From the NCBI RefSeq assembly GCF_030384885.1, contig NZ_CP128613.1: a stretch of DNA of 64,000 bases; one strand, 5' to 3'. Positions 14,057 through 20,821 of this stretch are shown in pieces; within the stretch, counting starts at the first letter, position 1, and each line of letters begins with the position of its first letter. Below the pieces are notes generated by a model. That model saw only the letters and a list, made by a program, of their open reading frames with translations, had not been told where the DNA came from and searched no databases. Origin of the DNA: Escherichia coli (GTDB lineage: Bacteria; Pseudomonadota; Gammaproteobacteria; Enterobacterales; Enterobacteriaceae). The translations under genes and the position numbers were made by a program.

Positions 14057-14272
14057 AGGTGTATTGCTCAATCTTCGAACGGGGGGAGGATTGTAGCAGA
14101 ATCGCATTTGAATGTGACCGAGTGAAAACCGCTAACCGGATGGCTGCGGATGTTTAAATCAGAGAGGGAAGGCCGAAACCGGAGTTCATCATGAATCCAT
14201 TAGACTTAGAAAATATCGGGTCGTAACGTTGTGTTATTACTTTTTCAGAGTTTACTAAGGAGAGGTTTACTC

Positions 14273-14722
14273 GTGGCGATTAATTTCAGCCCCAAGGTTG
14301 GTGAAATACTGGAATGCAACTTTGGTAACTATCCCGTTAGCCAGAATGGACAGTTCAGCACGACGTATTACGATGGCCGCATTCCACCTGAGATGATAAA
14401 AAATAGGTTGGTTGTCGTGCTCAACGGAAAAATTAATGGCAACGCATGTATCGTCGTTCCATTATCAACCACTCGCGACCATGACAAGTTAAATCGTGGA
14501 ATGCATGTTGAAATAGCCAGTAATGTTATCAATGACCTGCAATTCTTTGATCCGCAGATACGTTGGGCTAAAGCCGACCTGGTACAACAAGTCAGTCGAA
14601 ACCGATTAAACAGAGCAAGGACTTATCGGGGGTATCTTAATCAATGTTTGCCACATGAGTTGGTTGCAGACATACAGAGGGCAGTCATCAAGTCAATCAA
14701 TGCCATATCGCTCATAAATTGA
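14273..14722 (+). CDS. yifN: MazF/PemK-like toxin-fold protein YifN
   Basis: ORF 14231..14722; AAGGAGA RBS 9 nt before GTG at 14273; PemK-like segments (KVGEIL..., RLVVVL, CIVVPLSTT); position between rep and ppiC. Confidence 0.65.
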   Translation: MAINFSPKVGEILECNFGNYPVSQNGQFSTTYYDGRIPPEMIKNRLVVVLNGKINGNACIVVPLSTTRDHDKLNRGMHVEIASNVINDLQFFDPQIRWAKADLVQQVSRNRLNRARTYRGYLNQCLPHELVADIQRAVIKSINAISLIN

Positions 14723-16825: not shown

Positions 16826-17716
16826 TTGGATTTACGCGATCTGAAAACCTTCCTGCATCTGGCGGAAAGCCGCCATTTTGGCCGCAGCGCGCGGGCGATG
16901 CACGTTAGTCCATCCACGCTTTCCCGACAGATTCAGCGCCTGGAAGAAGATCTCGGTCAGCAGCTGTTTGTGCGCGATAACCGTACGGTGACGCTGACCG
17001 AAGCGGGCGAAGAACTGCGCGTTTTCGCCCAGCAAACACTGTTGCAGTATCAGCAATTGCGCCACACCATCGACCAGCAAGGACCGTCGCTCTCTGGCGA
17101 ATTACATATCTTCTGCTCGGTGACCGCTGCCTACAGCCATCTGCCGCCGATTCTTGACAGATTCCGCGCGGAACACCCGTCAGTGGAGATCAAACTCACT
17201 ACCGGTGATGCGGCGGATGCGATGGAAAAAGTGGTGACGGGGGAAGCGGATCTGGCGATTGCCGGGAAGCCGGAGACGCTGCCCGGTGCAGTGGCGTTTT
17301 CGATGCTGGAGAATCTGGCAGTGGTGCTGATCGCGCCTGCCCTACCGTGCCCGGTGCGTAATCAGGTTTCGGTAGAGAAGCCGGACTGGTCTACAGTGCC
17401 GTTTATCATGGCAGATCAGGGGCCGGTGCGCCGCCGCATTGAGCTGTGGTTCCGACGCAATAAAATCAGTAACCCGATGATTTACGCCACGGTTGGCGGA
17501 CATGAAGCGATGGTTTCGATGGTGGCGCTCGGCTGCGGCGTGGCATTGTTGCCGGAAGTGGTGCTGGAAAACAGCCCGGAACCGGTGCGTAACCGCGTGA
17601 TGATTCTGGAGCGTAGCGATGAGAAAACGCCGTTTGAGCTGGGCGTTTGTGCACAAAAAAAGCGGCTGCATGAGCCGCTGATTGAGGCTTTCTGGAAGAT
17701 TTTACCGAATTACTAA
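16826..17716 (+). CDS. ilvY: LysR-family transcriptional activator of ilvC
   Basis: Protein reads (M)[44 protein letters not shown]...; the codon encoding the first residue is TTG at 16826, no in-frame ATG nearby. Confidence 0.85.
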
Positions 17717-17726
17717 GGACAATTTC

Positions 17727-18116
17727 ATGACAACAAGAAAGTGGATATTATTATTGGTTTTAGCGGTAAGTTGCATTGCGCAAGCCAAACCGAAAGGTAT
17801 CACCGTTCAGGATGTGAAGCATCTGGCGTTGAAAGAGTGTTTAACGTCCCATTATCGTGAGCGTACGCCCGCTGATGCCTTTTCGGCTCCTGCTCATGAC
17901 GTTTCATTTCTGCTTGAAAGGTATGCTTTAGATAATGCTGGAAAGTGGAATGCTTTTCAGAAATTTGTCGCCAAAGAGACGAAGGGATTTGGCACCCTCA
18001 CCCTTGCGCTACATCCCGATAGCGCAAAGGATGCGAATAACATAATGGAGCGGTGTATGAGCTTTTATGAGTCGGAAAAGCTTGATAATTACATTCGTAA
18101 TAAGATTATGAAGTAA
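17727..18116 (+). CDS. hypothetical small exported protein (predicted signal peptide; possible lipobox)
   Basis: ATG with AAGGA RBS 8 nt upstream, starting 10 nt after the ilvY stop; N-terminus MTTRKWILLLVLAVSCIAQA|KPKG has n/h/c signal regions and an AxA site; two Cys in the mature part. No family recognised. Confidence 0.6.
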   Translation: MTTRKWILLLVLAVSCIAQAKPKGITVQDVKHLALKECLTSHYRERTPADAFSAPAHDVSFLLERYALDNAGKWNAFQKFVAKETKGFGTLTLALHPDSAKDANNIMERCMSFYESEKLDNYIRNKIMK

Positions 18117-18134
18117 ATCGTGAGAAATAAATAC

Positions 18135-18725
18135 ATGGCAAAAAATAATAATCACTTACCATCGAATATCGATAATTTCTCTATCCATAAGAAATACACC
18201 CACATATTTGACATTGCCTTTGTAAAGTTTGGTGCCAGACTGGCAGATGTACAAATGACACTATTCAAAAACACATCGCCCTCAGTTTATACACTTCAAT
18301 GTATAAGTGACGATGAATTGTTCTTTATTGATATTTACGAAGATGAGCAAGCCGTGTTAGCAGAACACCGAATTATTGATAATGAAGAAAATATTGTTTT
18401 CATCCCACATTGTTTTACAAAAATGTTAATGACTGCTTGTCAGGAAGCTAAAAAACAACCTGCTTTATACACGGAAGATATACTAATGAGCAAAAGAGTG
18501 CGTCGCCAGCGACTATCACAGACTATGCCTGCTCTGGTGAGCCTACGTGACATCCATATCGATTTTAGGACCAGTTACGGACATGGCGAAGCCTCATACG
18601 AGATCAATTTTAGTCCATACGCTATCGAAAATGGTGACTGGATGAACGCTAAAAGGTGCAGAAATTTTTCTGTTATGTTCGATGAGAATATGAATTTTAT
18701 AGAAGTTCAATGGTATAGGGATTAA
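18135..18725 (+). CDS. hypothetical cytoplasmic protein (196 aa), AT-rich gene
   Basis: ORF 18120..18725; likely start is the ATG at 18135 (MAKNNNHLPSN...); no TM or signal peptide; visibly AT-rich codon usage; no recognisable motif. Confidence 0.55.
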   Translation: MAKNNNHLPSNIDNFSIHKKYTHIFDIAFVKFGARLADVQMTLFKNTSPSVYTLQCISDDELFFIDIYEDEQAVLAEHRIIDNEENIVFIPHCFTKMLMTACQEAKKQPALYTEDILMSKRVRRQRLSQTMPALVSLRDIHIDFRTSYGHGEASYEINFSPYAIENGDWMNAKRCRNFSVMFDENMNFIEVQWYRD

Positions 18726-18731
18726 AAAAAC

Positions 18732-19205
18732 TTAAACCGAAACACGATTTGGAAACATAACAACCTCCACTTCAATTTCTGTTAAATTACTTAAATTGAT
18801 TATCAGTTTTAACTCTGAATGTTCGTTAATTGCCATCAAAATATCATTGCTAACAGAAATAAAGCTTATTGGGTTAGTCTGGGTAAAAAAGAATCCCCAG
18901 ACAAAATTATTATCAGCATCTATATATACCAACGATCCCTCGTTTCCCATCGTTCCATCACCGCCGTAGATTTTCCCGCCTTTATACTCAGTAAATGTCC
19001 AGTAGTCGACGGGAACCCAGCAATCAGAATCGTATTTTTCAATACTGGAGAAGGATGTATCACACAAAGGAGTACACCAGGCTTTCTTCTCTTTCGTGTA
19101 ATTATCGAAAGACTCCCGCCAGTTTAAAAGGGTGACAGTCCCATTCGCAAAGGTCAGGCTATCGATTCCAGGTAACTCTTTTTTCTCTTCCCAGCGTTTA
19201 AACAT
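18732..19205 (-). CDS. hypothetical cytoplasmic protein (157 aa)
   Basis: ATG at 19205 with AAGGA RBS 9 nt upstream; stop lies 6 bp from the stop of the preceding plus-strand ORF (tail-to-tail); AT-rich; no recognisable motif. Confidence 0.55.
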   Translation of the reverse strand: MFKRWEEKKELPGIDSLTFANGTVTLLNWRESFDNYTKEKKAWCTPLCDTSFSSIEKYDSDCWVPVDYWTFTEYKGGKIYGGDGTMGNEGSLVYIDADNNFVWGFFFTQTNPISFISVSNDILMAINEHSELKLIINLSNLTEIEVEVVMFPNRVSV

Positions 19206-19240
19206 GACAATAAATCCTTTTATTTCATCACGTAGTATAA

Positions 19241-19268
19241 CTCCCTAATGAAGACGTTCATTAGGGAG
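19241..19268 (-). terminator. perfect 12-bp inverted repeat just downstream of the ilvA stop
   Basis: CTCCCTAATGAA-GACG-TTCATTAGGGAG; weak U-tract, so possibly a leaky terminator or processing site. Confidence 0.45.
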
Positions 19269-19276
19269 CCATGTGT

Positions 19277-20821
19277 TTAACCCGCCAAAAAGAACCTGAA
19301 CGCCGGGTTATGGGTTTCGTCGTGGCAATCGTAGCCCAGCTCATTTAGCCGGGTTTCGAAATCCGGTTCGTGGTCGCCAAGCTCGAACGCCGCCAGTACG
19401 CGCCCGTAGTCGGTACCGTGGCTGCGATAATGGAAAAGCGAAATGTTCCAGTGGGTACCTAGCGTGTTGAGGAAGCGCAGCAGCGCGCCCGGCGATTCCG
19501 GGAACTCGAAGCTGTAGAGGCGTTCCTGCAACGGATGCGATGGACGCCCACCAACCATATAGCGCACGTGTAGCTTCGCCATTTCGTCGTCGGAGAGATC
19601 AACCACGCTGTAGCCGCCATCGTTGAGCATCTGCAAAATTTCTTTACGCTCTTCGAGCCCTCGACTTAAGCGCACGCCGACAAAAATGCAGGCGTTTTTG
19701 GCATCGGCAAAGCGGTAGTTGAACTCGGTGACCGAGCGCCCGCCAAGCAGTTGGCAGAACTTCAGGAAGCTGCCCTTCTCTTCCGGGATAGTCACCGCCA
19801 GCAACGCTTCACGCTGTTCACCCAGTTCGCAGCGTTCCGAGACGTAGCGCAGGCCGTGGAAATTGACATTCGCCCCCGAAAGCACATGCGCCAGTCGTTC
19901 GCCGCGAATATTGTTCTGGGCGATGTATTTTTTCATTCCCGCCAGCGCCAGCGCGCCGGAAGGTTCCGCCACCGCGCGCACATCTTCGAATAAATCCTTC
20001 ATCGCCGCACAGATCGCATCACTATCGACGGTGATGATGTCGTCGAGATACTCCTGGCATAAACGGAATGTTTCGTCGCCAATGCGTTTTACCGCTACGC
20101 CTTCAGCAAATAGCCCCACGCGCGGCAGATCAACCGGATGACCCGCATCCAGCGCCGCTTTCAGGCAGGCGGAGTCTTCCGCTTCAACGGCAATCACTTT
20201 GATTTGCGGCATCAGTTGTTTGATCAGCACCGCCACACCCGCCGCCAGACCGCCGCCGCCGACCGGCACAAACACGCGGTCAAGATGGGCATCCTGCTGG
20301 AGCAGTTCCAGCGCCAGCGTGCCTTGCCCGGCGATCACCATCGGGTGGTCGAACGGCGGCACCCAGGTGAAGCCCTGCTGCTGTGACAGTTCGATCGCTT
20401 TCGCTTTTGCTTCGTCAAAGTTCGCGCCATGAAGCAACACTTCGCCGCCAAAGCCGCGTACCGCATCAACTTTGATATCGGCGGTGGCGGTTGGCATGAC
20501 GATCAGCGCCTTCACGCCTAACCGCGCGGAGGAAAACGCGACGCCCTGCGCGTGATTACCCGCCGAGGCAGTGATCACGCCATGCGCTTTTTGTTCTTCC
20601 GTCAGGCCCGCCATCATGGCGTATGCACCGCGCAGCTTAAAGCTGTGTACCGGCTGGCGATCTTCGCGCTTCACCAGAATCACGTTATCAAGACGCGACG
20701 AGAGCTTTTCCATTTTTTGTAGCGGCGTGACCTGCGCCGCCTCGTAAACCGGTGCACGTAGCACCGCTCTTAAATATTCGGCGCCTTCCGGAGCACCAGA
20801 CAGGGGTTGTGAGTCTGCCAT
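19277..20821 (-). CDS. ilvA: threonine deaminase (biosynthetic threonine dehydratase)
   Basis: ORF 19277..20824; recognised start MADSQPLSGAPEGAEYLRAVLRAPVYEAAQVTPLQKMEKLS (514 aa). Confidence 0.95.
   Translation of the reverse strand: MADSQPLSGAPEGAEYLRAVLRAPVYEAAQVTPLQKMEKLSSRLDNVILVKREDRQPVHSFKLRGAYAMMAGLTEEQKAHGVITASAGNHAQGVAFSSARLGVKALIVMPTATADIKVDAVRGFGGEVLLHGANFDEAKAKAIELSQQQGFTWVPPFDHPMVIAGQGTLALELLQQDAHLDRVFVPVGGGGLAAGVAVLIKQLMPQIKVIAVEAEDSACLKAALDAGHPVDLPRVGLFAEGVAVKRIGDETFRLCQEYLDDIITVDSDAICAAMKDLFEDVRAVAEPSGALALAGMKKYIAQNNIRGERLAHVLSGANVNFHGLRYVSERCELGEQREALLAVTIPEEKGSFLKFCQLLGGRSVTEFNYRFADAKNACIFVGVRLSRGLEERKEILQMLNDGGYSVVDLSDDEMAKLHVRYMVGGRPSHPLQERLYSFEFPESPGALLRFLNTLGTHWNISLFHYRSHGTDYGRVLAAFELGDHEPDFETRLNELGYDCHDETHNPAFRFFLAG

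What the first reader, a model, noticed from the sequence alone, without database searches (positions are those of the whole stretch)
17727..18116. Islet gene 1: small exported (possibly lipo-) protein translationally close-coupled to ilvY
The 129-aa product has a textbook Sec signal (MTTRKWILLLVLAVSCIAQA, AxA cleavage site). The Cys at position 16 in an LAVSC context could alternatively be a weak lipobox. The mature part is lysine/glutamate-rich and probably helical, with two Cys (possible disulfide). Small periplasmic proteins of this kind are typical of immunity proteins against periplasm-acting effectors and of enzyme inhibitors, but no family motif is recognisable. Its ATG lies only 10 nt after the ilvY stop, with the RBS overlapping the ilvY 3' end, so expression may be tied to ilvY transcription.
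Basis: partly seen in the sequence, partly recalled or inferred. Interest (0 to 1): 0.55.

Follow-up and report, generated by a model that had tools for sequence, protein, structure and literature searches.

The report
Orphan Tai4-like immunity gene after ilvY
This small gene tucked behind the ilvY regulator encodes an exported protein with the fold of Tai4/Rap, the proteins that protect bacteria from cell-wall-cutting toxins injected by rivals, but no toxin gene sits beside it, so it is most likely a stand-alone shield against other bacteria's weapons.

Summary
Window 17727-18116 (+) is a real 129-aa gene, RefSeq WP_000213253.1, annotated "hypothetical protein". It has a Sec-type signal peptide, two invariant Cys and an ATG 10 nt after the ilvY stop.

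Its family can now be named: it is a divergent member of the Tai4/Rap family of periplasmic T6SS amidase-immunity proteins.
- Pfam Tai4 scores E=0.015 on the gene itself and down to 7.5e-6 on relatives.
- A family HMM finds Rap1b, Rap2a and Tai4 as its top four PDB hits.
- hhalign gives 89.5% probability.
- Two distant relatives lie directly downstream of confirmed Tae4 effector genes, one beside vgrG.

The orthologue group is always effector-less. It always sits in the ilvY-ilvA gap, in about ten enterobacterial genera, usually 7-12 nt after the ilvY stop. It is under purifying selection (dN/dS about 0.13).

In E. coli it belongs to a 1,560-nt, 39% GC islet found in 2 of 5,426 complete genomes.

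The best reading is an orphan immunity protein against Tae4-like peptidoglycan amidases, expressed from the ilvY transcript. This is a new member of a known kind, and its function is untested.

The parts
16826..17716 (+). ilvY (LysR-type activator of ilvC). It is the upstream gene whose transcript most likely carries g1.
   Evidence: RefSeq annotation. IlvY is 91-99% identical across all loci that hold a g1 orthologue. No terminator-like site was found on the + strand between ilvY and g1.
17714..17719 (+). TAAGGA: the ilvY stop codon overlapping the Shine-Dalgarno sequence of g1, 7 nt before the ATG.
   Evidence: Read directly from the sequence. Equivalent TAAGGAG or TGAtAAGGA junctions occur in Salmonella, Phytobacter, Kosakonia, Superficieibacter, 'K. 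oxytoca' NBRC 105695 and UBA MAGs.
17727..18116 (+). g1: a 129-aa precursor of a Tai4/Rap-fold periplasmic protein (the finding).
17727..17786 (+). Signal peptide, residues 1-20 (MTTRKWILLLVLAVSCIAQA). The predicted signal peptidase I site is after A20.
   Evidence: n/h/c-region features are conserved in 29 of 29 relatives. (A/V)-Q-A|K is invariant in the orthologues. Solved Tai4/Rap chains align only from about residue 23-30 onward. Tai4 has a cleaved periplasmic leader (PMC3695027).
17787..18113 (+). Mature all-alpha domain (109 aa) with six helices.
17838..17840 (+). Codon of Cys38, the first Cys of the conserved pair (motif ALKxCL).
   Evidence: Invariant in 29 of 29 relatives. It aligns with the first Cys of Rap1b, Rap2a and Tai4. 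In Tai4, Cys48-Cys108 form a disulfide linking helices b and e (PMC3695027).
17979..18041 (+). Long loop, residues 85-105 (TKGFGTLTLALHPDSAKDANN), before the second-Cys helix. It occupies the position of the Tai4 d-e 'inhibition loop'.
   Evidence: The model shows no regular secondary structure here and its lowest pLDDT, about 70. The loop is about 8-10 residues longer than in Tai4/Rap and cannot be aligned reliably. The role of the d-e loop in Tai4 comes from PMC3695027. The equivalence is inferred.
18054..18056 (+). Codon of Cys110, the second Cys of the pair (motif CMxFYES).
   Evidence: Invariant in 29 of 29 relatives. It aligns with the second Cys of Rap1b, Rap2a and Tai4.
17717..19276 (.). 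The 1,560-nt, low-GC islet (g1, g2, g3), inserted exactly between the ilvY and ilvA stop codons. In ordinary E. coli these two stop codons overlap.
   Evidence: Junction comparison with the empty site in strain RMDEC465. GC is 38.7% against 57-58% in the flanks. The islet is present in 2 of 5,426 complete E. coli genomes, even in blastn 'distant' mode.
18135..18725 (+). g2: a 196-aa hypothetical protein, 18 nt downstream of g1 on the same strand. It is context only, with no shown functional link.
   Evidence: There are no family matches. Homologues occur only in Escherichia. It is absent from most loci that carry g1.
18732..19205 (-). g3: a 157-aa hypothetical protein, 71 nt downstream of ilvA on the same strand. 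It is context only.
   Evidence: There are no family matches. Homologues occur in Paenibacillus, Flavobacterium and Synergistaceae. It is also present in the E. albertii and Superficieibacter electus loci.

Best explanation
g1 encodes a divergent, previously unannotated member of the Tai4/Rap family of periplasmic immunity proteins. It acts as an 'orphan' immunity gene, meaning it has no partner toxin beside it.

Proposed mechanism:
1. The gene is transcribed as the 3' extension of the constitutively expressed, autoregulated ilvY mRNA. It is translated from a Shine-Dalgarno sequence that overlaps the ilvY stop.
2. The precursor is exported by Sec and cut after A20.
3. The 109-residue all-helical domain is locked by a Cys38-Cys110 disulfide and probably dimerises, as Tai4 and Rap proteins do.
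4. In the periplasm it binds incoming Tae4-type peptidoglycan amidases (NlpC/P60-like effectors delivered by rivals' type VI secretion systems). It blocks their active-site cleft with the long loop preceding the second-Cys helix, protecting the cell wall.

Shown here: the gene is real and under purifying selection. It has signal-peptide features, the Tai4/Rap fold and an aligned Cys pair. It is homologous to proteins encoded next to Tae4 genes. No effector is adjacent in any of the 14 orthologue loci whose ilvY-g1 junction was examined. The ilvY junction is conserved.

Inferred: export itself, the disulfide, dimerisation, effector binding, which effector it targets, the absence of a cognate effector elsewhere in the genome, and co-transcription with ilvY.
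For: Family assignment:
- Pfam Tai4 (PF16695) is the best hit, covering model positions 4-90 of 92 at E=0.015.
- 13 of 20 orthologues and 19 of 29 family members match it at E<=0.1. Six of 29 match at E<=1e-3, the best at 7.5e-6.
- The family HMM (A2) against 177,635 PDB sequences gives Rap1b 1.4e-4, Rap2a 6.6e-4, and Tai4 0.023 and 0.026 as its top four hits, with both Cys aligned.
- hhalign of the orthologue-only alignment against Tai4/Rap1b/Rap2a gives 89.5% probability, E=2e-6.

Effector link:
- P0034 (phmmer E=2.3e-6 against 1.84 billion proteins; BLASTP 6e-16) overlaps by 4 nt the 3' end of a gene that matches Pfam Tae4 (PF14113).
- P0045 (E=7e-4) overlaps by 1 nt the 3' end of a second such gene, and that locus also holds vgrG and TsiV genes.
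- The two Tae4 matches score E=1.3e-23 and 3.4e-25 over the full model.

Orphan status: there is no effector or T6SS gene in the ilvY-ilvA gap of any orthologue locus.

Expression: the gap to ilvY is 7-12 nt, or a 4-nt overlap, in 11 of 14 loci. No + strand terminator was found.

Selection: dN/dS is 0.09-0.24. dN is 5-20 times that of ilvY, the fast protein evolution expected for immunity proteins.

Acquisition: the islet has 38.7% GC and occurs in 2 of 5,426 E. coli genomes.

Precedent: an orphan Tai4-like gene, t0730, lies in the S. Typhi SAIDI-1 immunity islet (PMC7400221). The Tai4 leader, disulfide, dimer and d-e loop mechanism are described in PMC3695027.
Against: - No cognate effector close to g1 is known. 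The nearest Tae4-linked relatives are only about 28% identical. The closer relatives checked (P0027, P0028, P0031, P0032) are all effector-less.
- The orthologue group has stayed at one fixed core-genome position through saturated synonymous divergence. That is unlike the usual fast-turnover orphan-immunity islands and could mean a different, domesticated role.
- The Ser that Tai4 uses to contact the effector's catalytic His is not conserved in the g1 loop: Ser99 in the Escherichia and Salmonella alleles, His in the Phytobacter group.
- The single-sequence Pfam score (16.3 bits, E=0.015) is sub-threshold on its own, and Foldseek E-values are weak at 0.4-1.2.
- The rest of the genome was not searched for Tae4 or T6SS genes.
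- No dedicated signal-peptide predictor and no experiment were available.
Confidence: 0.58

Rival explanations
1. Domesticated Tai4-fold protein with a housekeeping role. The ilvY-linked clade may no longer serve against foreign effectors. It could instead act as a periplasmic binder or inhibitor of an endogenous enzyme, for example one of the cell's own NlpC/P60-type peptidoglycan hydrolases, kept at a constant low level by riding on the ilvY transcript.
For: The position and translational coupling to ilvY are fixed in about ten genera, with saturated dS and purifying selection. In Phytobacter, Kosakonia and Superficieibacter the gap has near-native GC of about 50% and holds only g1 plus a DUF2461 gene. 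In 'K. oxytoca' NBRC 105695, g1 is the only gene in the gap. All closer relatives checked are solitary genes among housekeeping genes.
Against: The gene is dispensable and patchy: 2 of 5,426 E. coli genomes, only some Salmonella serovars, and 12 loci among 100,044 species genomes. Protein evolution is fast relative to the flanks, which fits an arms race better than a housekeeping partner. No endogenous target is indicated by any result.
Confidence: 0.17
2. Cognate, not orphan, immunity. The host strains carry an unlinked Tae4-like effector elsewhere in the chromosome, and g1 protects against self and sibling intoxication.
For: The fold, family and Tae4-linked relatives are the same as for the main explanation. 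The rest of the genome was not examined.
Against: T6SS effector-immunity pairs are almost always adjacent (PMC7400221). In the two linked relatives the genes overlap by 1-4 nt. In all 14 orthologue loci no effector is adjacent. A conserved separation across about ten genera would be unusual.
Confidence: 0.1
3. Outer- or inner-membrane lipoprotein. Cys16 in L-A-V-S-C would be lipid-modified, and the protein would act anchored to a membrane rather than as a soluble periplasmic protein.
For: A-V-S-C fits the permissive PROSITE-style lipobox. Three Phytobacter-type alleles have a better I-A-A-C box one residue earlier.
Against: A lipobox-like Cys is present in only 7 of 29 relatives, at two different positions. 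It is replaced by Tyr, Phe or no Cys at all in close orthologues such as P0009, P0010 and P0028. In contrast, (A/V)-Q-A|K is invariant. Position -3 is Ala, not Leu, Val or Ile. Tai4 has a cleaved periplasmic leader, which suggests a soluble periplasmic protein (PMC3695027).
Confidence: 0.08
4. Non-functional passenger. On this view the ORF is a decaying remnant carried along with the islet and makes no useful protein.
For: It is rare in E. coli and annotated only as hypothetical.
Against: It is intact and of constant length, 127-130 aa, in all 14 loci. dN/dS is about 0.13. The Cys pair and motifs are invariant. The ribosome-binding site is conserved. The fold prediction is confident.
Confidence: 0.03

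Closest known systems
Tai4 of Salmonella Typhimurium (STM0278; PDB 4HFF, 4J30, 4J32) and Enterobacter cloacae (4HFK), the immunity proteins to the T6SS amidase Tae4
   Different: Identity is only 10-15%. The Cys-Cys spacing is 72 rather than 60 residues, with a loop about 8-10 residues longer. The inhibitory Ser is not conserved. No tae4 gene lies upstream. It sits in the ilv locus, not in a T6SS cluster (SPI-6). Pfam and NCBIfam do not call it at their thresholds.
Rap1a/Rap1b/Rap2a/Rap2b of Serratia marcescens (PDB 4AX2, 3ZIB, 4B6I), resistance proteins to the Tae4-family effectors Ssp1 and Ssp2
   Different: The Rap genes lie inside the Serratia T6SS cluster, beside the ssp effector genes. 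g1 is isolated in a housekeeping locus. Identity is 9-18%.
Orphan Tai4-like gene t0730 in the Salmonella Typhi SAIDI-1 'acquired interbacterial defense' islet (PMC7400221)
   Same: The concept is the same: a Tai4 homologue without an effector, in a small horizontally acquired islet of an enteric bacterium, proposed to protect against competitors' T6SS.
   Different: SAIDI-1 is a multi-gene array of immunity genes at the yegQ locus. Here only g1 can be assigned to an immunity family. It is anchored to the ilvY 3' end across genera and is apparently expressed from the ilvY transcript. Sequence relatedness to t0730 was not tested.
   Same: They belong to the same sequence family, found directly by phmmer with g1. 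They share length, signal peptide, Cys pair and the CMxFY(H/E)S motif.
   Different: They are 28-29% identical to g1. They are encoded overlapping the 3' end of a Tae4 gene, one next to vgrG, and are therefore presumably cognate immunity proteins.

Membership tests
Tai4/Rap T6SS amidase-immunity family (Pfam PF16695) | Significant sequence similarity to the family profile or to solved members | tested here: met
   g1 alone is sub-threshold: Pfam E=0.015, 16.3 bits, though it spans model positions 4-90 of 92. Profile methods reach significance. The family HMM against PDB gives Rap1b 1.4e-4, Rap2a 6.6e-4 and Tai4 0.023 as the top four of 177,635 sequences. hhalign of orthologues against Tai4/Rap gives 89.5%, E=2e-6. 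Six of 29 relatives match PF16695 at E<=1e-3.
Tai4/Rap T6SS amidase-immunity family (Pfam PF16695) | All-alpha fold superposable on the Tai4/Rap crystal structures | tested here: met
Tai4/Rap T6SS amidase-immunity family (Pfam PF16695) | N-terminal cleavable leader giving periplasmic location | tested here: met
   Heuristic only. A basic n-region, a hydrophobic core and an A-x-A site are found in g1 and in 29 of 29 relatives. No SignalP or LipoP was available and there was no experiment.
Tai4/Rap T6SS amidase-immunity family (Pfam PF16695) | Conserved Cys pair forming the disulfide between helix b and helix e | tested here: met
   C38 and C110 are invariant in 29 of 29 and align with the Cys pair of Tai4, Rap1b and Rap2a. 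The feature is defined in PMC3695027. The bond itself could not be tested.
Tai4/Rap T6SS amidase-immunity family (Pfam PF16695) | Encoded immediately downstream of a Tae4-family effector gene | tested here: not met
   No effector lies in the ilvY-ilvA gap in the window or in any other orthologue locus. The feature is met by two distant family members, P0034 and P0045. g1 is therefore filed as an orphan homologue, not as one half of a pair.
Tai4/Rap T6SS amidase-immunity family (Pfam PF16695) | Inhibitory d-e loop carrying a conserved Ser/Thr that contacts the effector's catalytic His | tested here: inconclusive
   A loop is present at the right place (residues 85-105) but is 8-10 residues longer and cannot be aligned reliably. 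Ser99 is in the Escherichia and Salmonella alleles but is His in the Phytobacter group.
Tai4/Rap T6SS amidase-immunity family (Pfam PF16695) | Homodimer that binds and neutralises a Tae4 amidase | not testable with these tools
Orphan immunity gene / acquired interbacterial defence islet | Homologue of a cognate immunity protein with no adjacent effector | tested here: met
   Searches show homology. Searches show the absence of a neighbouring effector.
Orphan immunity gene / acquired interbacterial defence islet | No cognate effector anywhere in the same genome | not tested
   Only the 64-kb window and 7.8-kb loci were read.
Orphan immunity gene / acquired interbacterial defence islet | Lies in a strain-variable, horizontally acquired segment | tested here: met
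   In E. coli the islet has 38.7% GC against 57-58% in the flanks, has precise insertion boundaries and occurs in 2 of 5,426 genomes. In other genera the gene looks long-resident, with gap GC about 50%.
Orphan immunity gene / acquired interbacterial defence islet | Array of several different immunity genes and/or a mobility gene (as in SAIDI-1 or Bacteroidales AID clusters) | tested here: not met
   g2 and g3 match no immunity, defence or other family. The islet holds no integrase or transposase.
Bacterial lipoprotein | Conserved lipobox [LVI][ASTVI][GAS]C at the end of the signal peptide | tested here: not met
   g1 has A-V-S-C, with a non-consensus residue at -3. The Cys is absent or out of context in 22 of 29 relatives.

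The most novel reading that the evidence does not exclude
The ilvY-linked clade is not a defensive orphan. It would instead be a Tai4-fold periplasmic inhibitor recruited for a housekeeping job: it would be hard-wired to the 3' end of the ilvY mRNA in a set of enterobacterial genera and would restrain an endogenous NlpC/P60-type peptidoglycan hydrolase. That would be the first case of a T6SS immunity fold domesticated into cell-wall homeostasis and coupled to a branched-chain amino-acid regulator.
Probability: 0.08. Interest if true: 0.7.

Novelty: new member of a known kind. Interest (0 to 1): 0.4.

Why it matters
It gives a family, fold and testable function to a protein annotated only as "hypothetical" in E. 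coli, E. albertii, E. fergusonii, Salmonella, Phytobacter and others.

It adds a divergent branch to the Tai4/Rap immunity family that current Pfam and NCBIfam thresholds miss.

It also shows an unusual way of keeping an effector-less immunity gene expressed: splicing it onto the end of a constitutive housekeeping regulator's transcript, at a junction conserved across genera.

If the protein does neutralise Tae4-type amidases, which Salmonella Typhimurium, Enterobacter cloacae and Serratia marcescens encode (PMC3695027), its patchy distribution could help explain strain-level differences in survival during gut competition. None of this changes the general picture of T6SS immunity.

Tried and rejected
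- Single-sequence searches gave nothing usable. NCBIfam returned only a 12-bit LoiP match at E=0.1. PDB phmmer returned an unrelated E=0.9 hit. PADLOC returned nothing.
- The first AF2 model included the signal peptide and used only close orthologues. It was mediocre (pLDDT 78.5), and Foldseek gave only E=1.1-3 hits, though the top three were already Rap2a and Tai4. It was replaced by a mature-domain model built on a deeper alignment.
- P0029 (2,149 aa) and P0039 (513 aa) matched in several stretches. P0039 proved to be a low-complexity tandem-repeat protein and was discarded as spurious. P0029 was set aside on the same pattern without its sequence being read.
A metagenome scan with A7 found no relative. 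The fraction of the wider family that is Tae4-linked therefore rests on the eight contexts read by hand.
- The context of a Paenibacillus homologue of g3 was uninformative.
- Plasmid search (tblastn) found nothing. The three 'phage' collection hits are Salmonella-type chromosomal DNA, not phage genes.
- Literature searches for ilvY with hotspot, with T6SS immunity, or for the protein accession returned no papers.
- The longer TTG-initiated 144-aa ORF (17682-18116) was rejected. It overlaps ilvY, and all orthologues start at the ATG behind the Shine-Dalgarno sequence.
Full report
**1. Where we are**

The window is the ilv region of Escherichia coli strain 2013C-4282 (NZ_CP027579.1, 100% identity). 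The gene order is rep, a PemK/MazF-family toxin gene, ppiC, ilvC(-), ilvY(+), three 'hypothetical' genes, then ilvA(-), ilvD(-) and onward.

The finding is the first of the three, here called g1, at 17727-18116 on the + strand. RefSeq calls the same coordinates WP_000213253.1, hypothetical protein.

**2. The observation**

- The ilvY stop TAA is at 17714-17716 and the g1 ATG is at 17727. The 10-nt spacer is GGACAATTTC.
- TAAGGA (17714-17719) supplies a Shine-Dalgarno sequence overlapping the stop codon.
- The product is 129 aa. Residues 1-20 (MTTRKWILLLVLAVSCIAQA) have two basic and no acidic residues, a strongly hydrophobic core and A-Q-A before K21.
- The same tripartite pattern is present in all 29 relatives collected, although the sequence there is free to vary. 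In the 20 close orthologues, Q19-A20-K21 is invariant.
- Cys16 sits in A-V-S-C, which is off-consensus at position -3. A lipobox-like Cys occurs in only 7 of 29 relatives, at two different positions. Close orthologues have Tyr, Phe or no Cys there. Signal peptidase I processing is therefore more likely than lipidation. No dedicated predictor was available.
- The mature part has exactly two Cys, C38 and C110, both invariant.
- The gene is real. A 129-codon open frame is unlikely by chance (about 4e-4). Orthologues of 127-130 aa exist in about ten genera. Pairwise dN/dS is 0.09-0.24, median 0.13.

**3. What the protein is**

Single-sequence searches were nearly silent. NCBIfam, PDB phmmer and PADLOC gave nothing. 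Pfam gave one sub-threshold but end-to-end match to Tai4 (PF16695), 'T6SS amidase immunity protein': E=0.015, model positions 4-90 of 92. I treated this as a lead and tested it four ways.

(a) *Consistency across relatives.* 13 of 20 orthologues match Tai4 at E<=0.1. An exhaustive phmmer search of 1.84 billion representatives added more distant relatives: small secreted proteins sharing the motifs ALxxCL, D-x-S, F-V-x-x-x-T and N-x-I-F-x-x-C-M-x-F-Y-x-S. With these included, 19 of 29 match at E<=0.1 and 6 of 29 at E<=1e-3, the best at 7.5e-6.

(b) *Family HMM against PDB.* A profile of this 29-member family was searched against all PDB sequences. Its top four hits were Rap1b (4AX2, 1.4e-4), Rap2a (3ZIB, 6.6e-4) and Salmonella Tai4 (4HFF_B 0.023; 4J30_B 0.026). 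All covered the whole mature domain with both Cys aligned.

(c) *Profile-profile comparison.* hhalign of the orthologue-only alignment against an alignment of Tai4, Rap1b and Rap2a gave 89.5% probability, E=2e-6.

(d) *Fold.* An AlphaFold2 model of the mature domain on the deeper alignment is confident (pLDDT 92.1, pTM 0.85, six helices).
- Foldseek was weak (E=0.42 and 1.2) but also ranked Rap1b and Rap2a first.

According to Benz et al. 2013 (PMC3695027), Tai4 is a purely alpha-helical periplasmic protein with a cleaved leader and forms a homodimer.
- It has a Cys48-Cys108 disulfide tying helix b to helix e. That Cys pair is conserved in all Tai4 proteins and in Rap1b and Rap2b.
- Its d-e loop is inserted into the Tae4 active site, where Ser98 contacts the catalytic His.
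- g1 shares the leader, the helical fold and the aligned Cys pair.
- g1 has a loop at the corresponding place (residues 85-105, the least confident part of the model). That loop is 8-10 residues longer and cannot be aligned reliably.
- Ser99 is not conserved among orthologues.

I conclude that g1 is a divergent member of the Tai4/Rap superfamily. Its effector-contact surface has diverged, so its specificity cannot be read from Tai4.

**4. Link to amidase effectors**

Of the eight distant relatives whose contigs I could read, two qualify.
- P0034 (E=2.3e-6 to g1 in the 1.84-billion library; BLASTP 6e-16, 28% identity over the full length) overlaps by 4 nt the end of a 216-aa gene.
- P0045 (E=7e-4) overlaps by 1 nt the end of a 239-aa gene. 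Its locus also has vgrG and a TsiV-family gene.
- Both upstream genes match Pfam Tae4 (PF14113) over the whole model, at E=1.3e-23 and 3.4e-25.

The family that contains g1 therefore does include proteins in the classic Tae4-Tai4 gene arrangement. The other relatives checked are solitary:
- P0027 lies among proB- and phr-like genes.
- P0031 lies between an MFS transporter gene and a PLD-family gene.
- P0032 lies beside a lysyl-endopeptidase-like gene.
- P0037 lies after a ParE toxin gene on a short contig.
- P0044 is on a 1-kb contig.
- P0028 is described below.

**5. Genomic context of the orthologue group**

This was the most unexpected result. Every orthologue lies in the gap between ilvY and ilvA. 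The loci are:
- E. coli (two strains).
- E. albertii.
- Salmonella (serovars Gatineau and Infantis).
- Phytobacter (three species).
- Kosakonia sp. S29.
- Superficieibacter (two genomes).
- Pseudocitrobacter vendiensis.
- 'K. oxytoca' NBRC 105695.
- Two Enterobacteriaceae MAGs.

Even the 42%-identical P0028 overlaps by 4 nt the stop of a gene 95.6% identical to E. coli IlvY.

A pattern scan of one genome for each of 100,044 species found only 12 loci, all Enterobacteriaceae apart from one 3-kb contig labelled as an Actinomycetes MAG, which looks mis-binned.

In 11 of 14 loci the distance from the ilvY stop to the g1 start is 7-12 nt, or -4, with TAAGGAG or TGAtAAGGA at the junction. In E. albertii, Pseudocitrobacter and one short contig, other genes have been inserted between the two, 925-1,186 nt in all. 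In E. albertii these are a Gp49/HTH_37 toxin-antitoxin pair.

The other cargo in the gap varies:
- A DUF2461 gene in Phytobacter, Kosakonia, Superficieibacter, Salmonella and UBA5654, with a remnant in E. albertii.
- Nothing besides g1 in 'K. oxytoca' NBRC 105695.
- g2 and g3 in E. coli.

g1 is therefore the constant element and is not functionally tied to g2 or g3.

Selection and divergence:
- The flanking proteins are 91-100% identical while g1 is 58-87% identical.
- g1 has dN 5-20 times higher than ilvY.
- dS is similar in the closer pairs: 0.76 against 0.66 for E. coli and E. albertii, and 0.41 against 0.34 for E. coli and 'Pseudocitrobacter'.

This pattern suggests long co-residence with the flanks together with fast protein evolution.

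**6. The E. coli islet**

Comparison with an ordinary E. coli (strain RMDEC465) helps define the edges. There the ilvY and ilvA stop codons overlap (annotated CDS ends 1617 and 1614). The islet is 1,560 nt (17717-19276), placed exactly between the two stops. The last ilvY codons change from N-H-stop to N-Y-stop.

GC values:

| Segment | GC |
|---|---|
| Whole islet | 38.7% |
| g1 | 43% |
| g2 | 37% |
| g3 | 39% |
| ilvY and ilvA | 57-58% |

Only 2 of 5,426 complete E. coli genomes carry any of it, even at blastn 'distant' sensitivity. It is not on PLSDB plasmids. The same junction holds a RelE/HTH toxin-antitoxin pair in E. coli AR_0077, so it is a recurrent insertion point.

**7. Expression (inferred)**

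No terminator-like site lies between ilvY and g1 on the + strand. The hairpin with a T-run inside the ilvY 3' end (17661-17679) is on the - strand and looks like the original terminator of the convergent ilvGMEDA operon.

With the conserved junction, the simplest model is that g1, and in E. coli also g2 18 nt further on, is the distal part of the ilvY transcript. Textbook knowledge, not tested here, is that ilvY is expressed constitutively at a low level and is negatively autoregulated. A constant low supply suits an immunity protein.

The arrangement is mirrored on the other side. g3 sits 71 nt downstream of ilvA on the same strand, after a 12-bp-stem hairpin without a T-run (19241-19268).

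**8. Best explanation and rivals**

- *Orphan Tai4/Rap-type immunity* protein that neutralises Tae4-like peptidoglycan amidases in the periplasm, about 0.58.
  - Precedent: the orphan Tai4-like t0730 of the S. Typhi SAIDI-1 islet (PMC7400221).
  - Main weakness: no close cognate pair is known.
  - Second weakness: the clade has been effector-less at a fixed core position for a long time, which is atypical for orphan immunity genes.
- *Domesticated housekeeping role*, about 0.17. The fixed position motivates this rival. Against it, the gene is dispensable and patchy.
- *Cognate immunity to an unlinked effector*, about 0.10.
- *Lipoprotein variant*, about 0.08. This concerns localisation only.
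- *Non-functional remnant*, about 0.03. The selection data contradict it.

**9. Novelty and score**

The kind is known: Tai4/Rap immunity proteins, and orphan immunity genes in enteric islets. New here are the family assignment of an unannotated protein group, a divergent long-loop branch of the family, and its conserved, translationally close-coupled attachment to ilvY across genera.

I rate it a new member of a known kind, interest about 0.4. It is a clean and testable annotation with one curious feature, not a surprise to a T6SS specialist.

Noticed in passing
window 18135-18725 (+): g2, a 196-aa protein 18 nt downstream of g1. It has no signal peptide and no Pfam, NCBIfam or PADLOC match. 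Homologues (77-99% identity) were found only in Escherichia (E. fergusonii and E. coli). It is essentially a genus-restricted ORFan riding in the same apparent operon.
   Followed up: partly
window 18732-19205 (-): g3, a 157-aa cytoplasmic-looking protein with no domain match. It has 35-52% identical homologues in Paenibacillus, Flavobacterium and Synergistaceae, and 54-92% identical copies at the same ilv position in Superficieibacter electus and E. albertii. A cross-phylum spread like this is common for polymorphic-toxin immunity proteins. However, the one Paenibacillus neighbourhood read showed no toxin.
   Followed up: partly
window 19241-19268 and 17661-17679: A perfect 12-bp-stem hairpin (CTCCCTAATGAA/GACG/TTCATTAGGGAG) lies between the ilvA stop and the g3 start. 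A hairpin plus T-run on the - strand lies inside the ilvY 3' coding end and looks like the original ilvGMEDA terminator. The islet now separates it from ilvA by 1.56 kb, so ilvGMEDA read-through may run through g3 and antisense to g2 and g1.
   Followed up: no
ilvY/ilvA junction: window 17714-19279; L029, L003, L017, L006, L007: The convergent ilvY-ilvA junction overlaps in ordinary E. coli. It is a recurrent insertion site with different cargo in different hosts. E. coli AR_0077 has a RelE/HTH toxin-antitoxin pair and E. albertii a Gp49/HTH_37 pair. Pseudocitrobacter has a 332-aa gene. Salmonella, Phytobacter, Kosakonia and Superficieibacter have a DUF2461 gene.
   Followed up: partly
window 14231-14722 (+): A PemK/MazF-family toxin gene (RefSeq WP_000996697.1) lies between rep and ppiC. 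No antitoxin is annotated in the stretch shown.
   Followed up: no
L017 (NZ_CALSBS010000050.1) and L016 (JAEWCA010000422.1): A 14.5-kb contig labelled Pseudocitrobacter vendiensis encodes an IlvA 100% identical at the protein level to the E. coli window. A 3-kb contig labelled 'Actinomycetes MAG' encodes an IlvY fragment 100% identical to E. coli and carries the whole g1-g2-g3 islet. Both look like Escherichia DNA, through contamination, mis-binning or recent transfer.
   Followed up: no
L040 (OR845309.1), OR851046.1, L041 (AFYI01000004.1): Two 3-kb UNVERIFIED 'phage' records from wastewater carry the Salmonella-type g1 allele (65% identity) and are probably packaged or contaminating host DNA. 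In Salmonella Infantis SARB27 the arrangement is ilvY-g1-hypothetical-hypothetical-ilvA. There g1 has no LT2 locus-tag cross-reference, which suggests serovar-variable presence.
   Followed up: partly
L033 478-1128 and L037 4282-5001: The Tae4 effectors paired with the g1 relatives are 216-239 aa, and their Pfam Tae4 match starts only at about residue 59. One has a Lys/Pro-rich N-terminal repeat (KPTKPVKPVKPAKPKPP). They may form a Tae4 subclass matched to this long-loop immunity branch.
   Followed up: no
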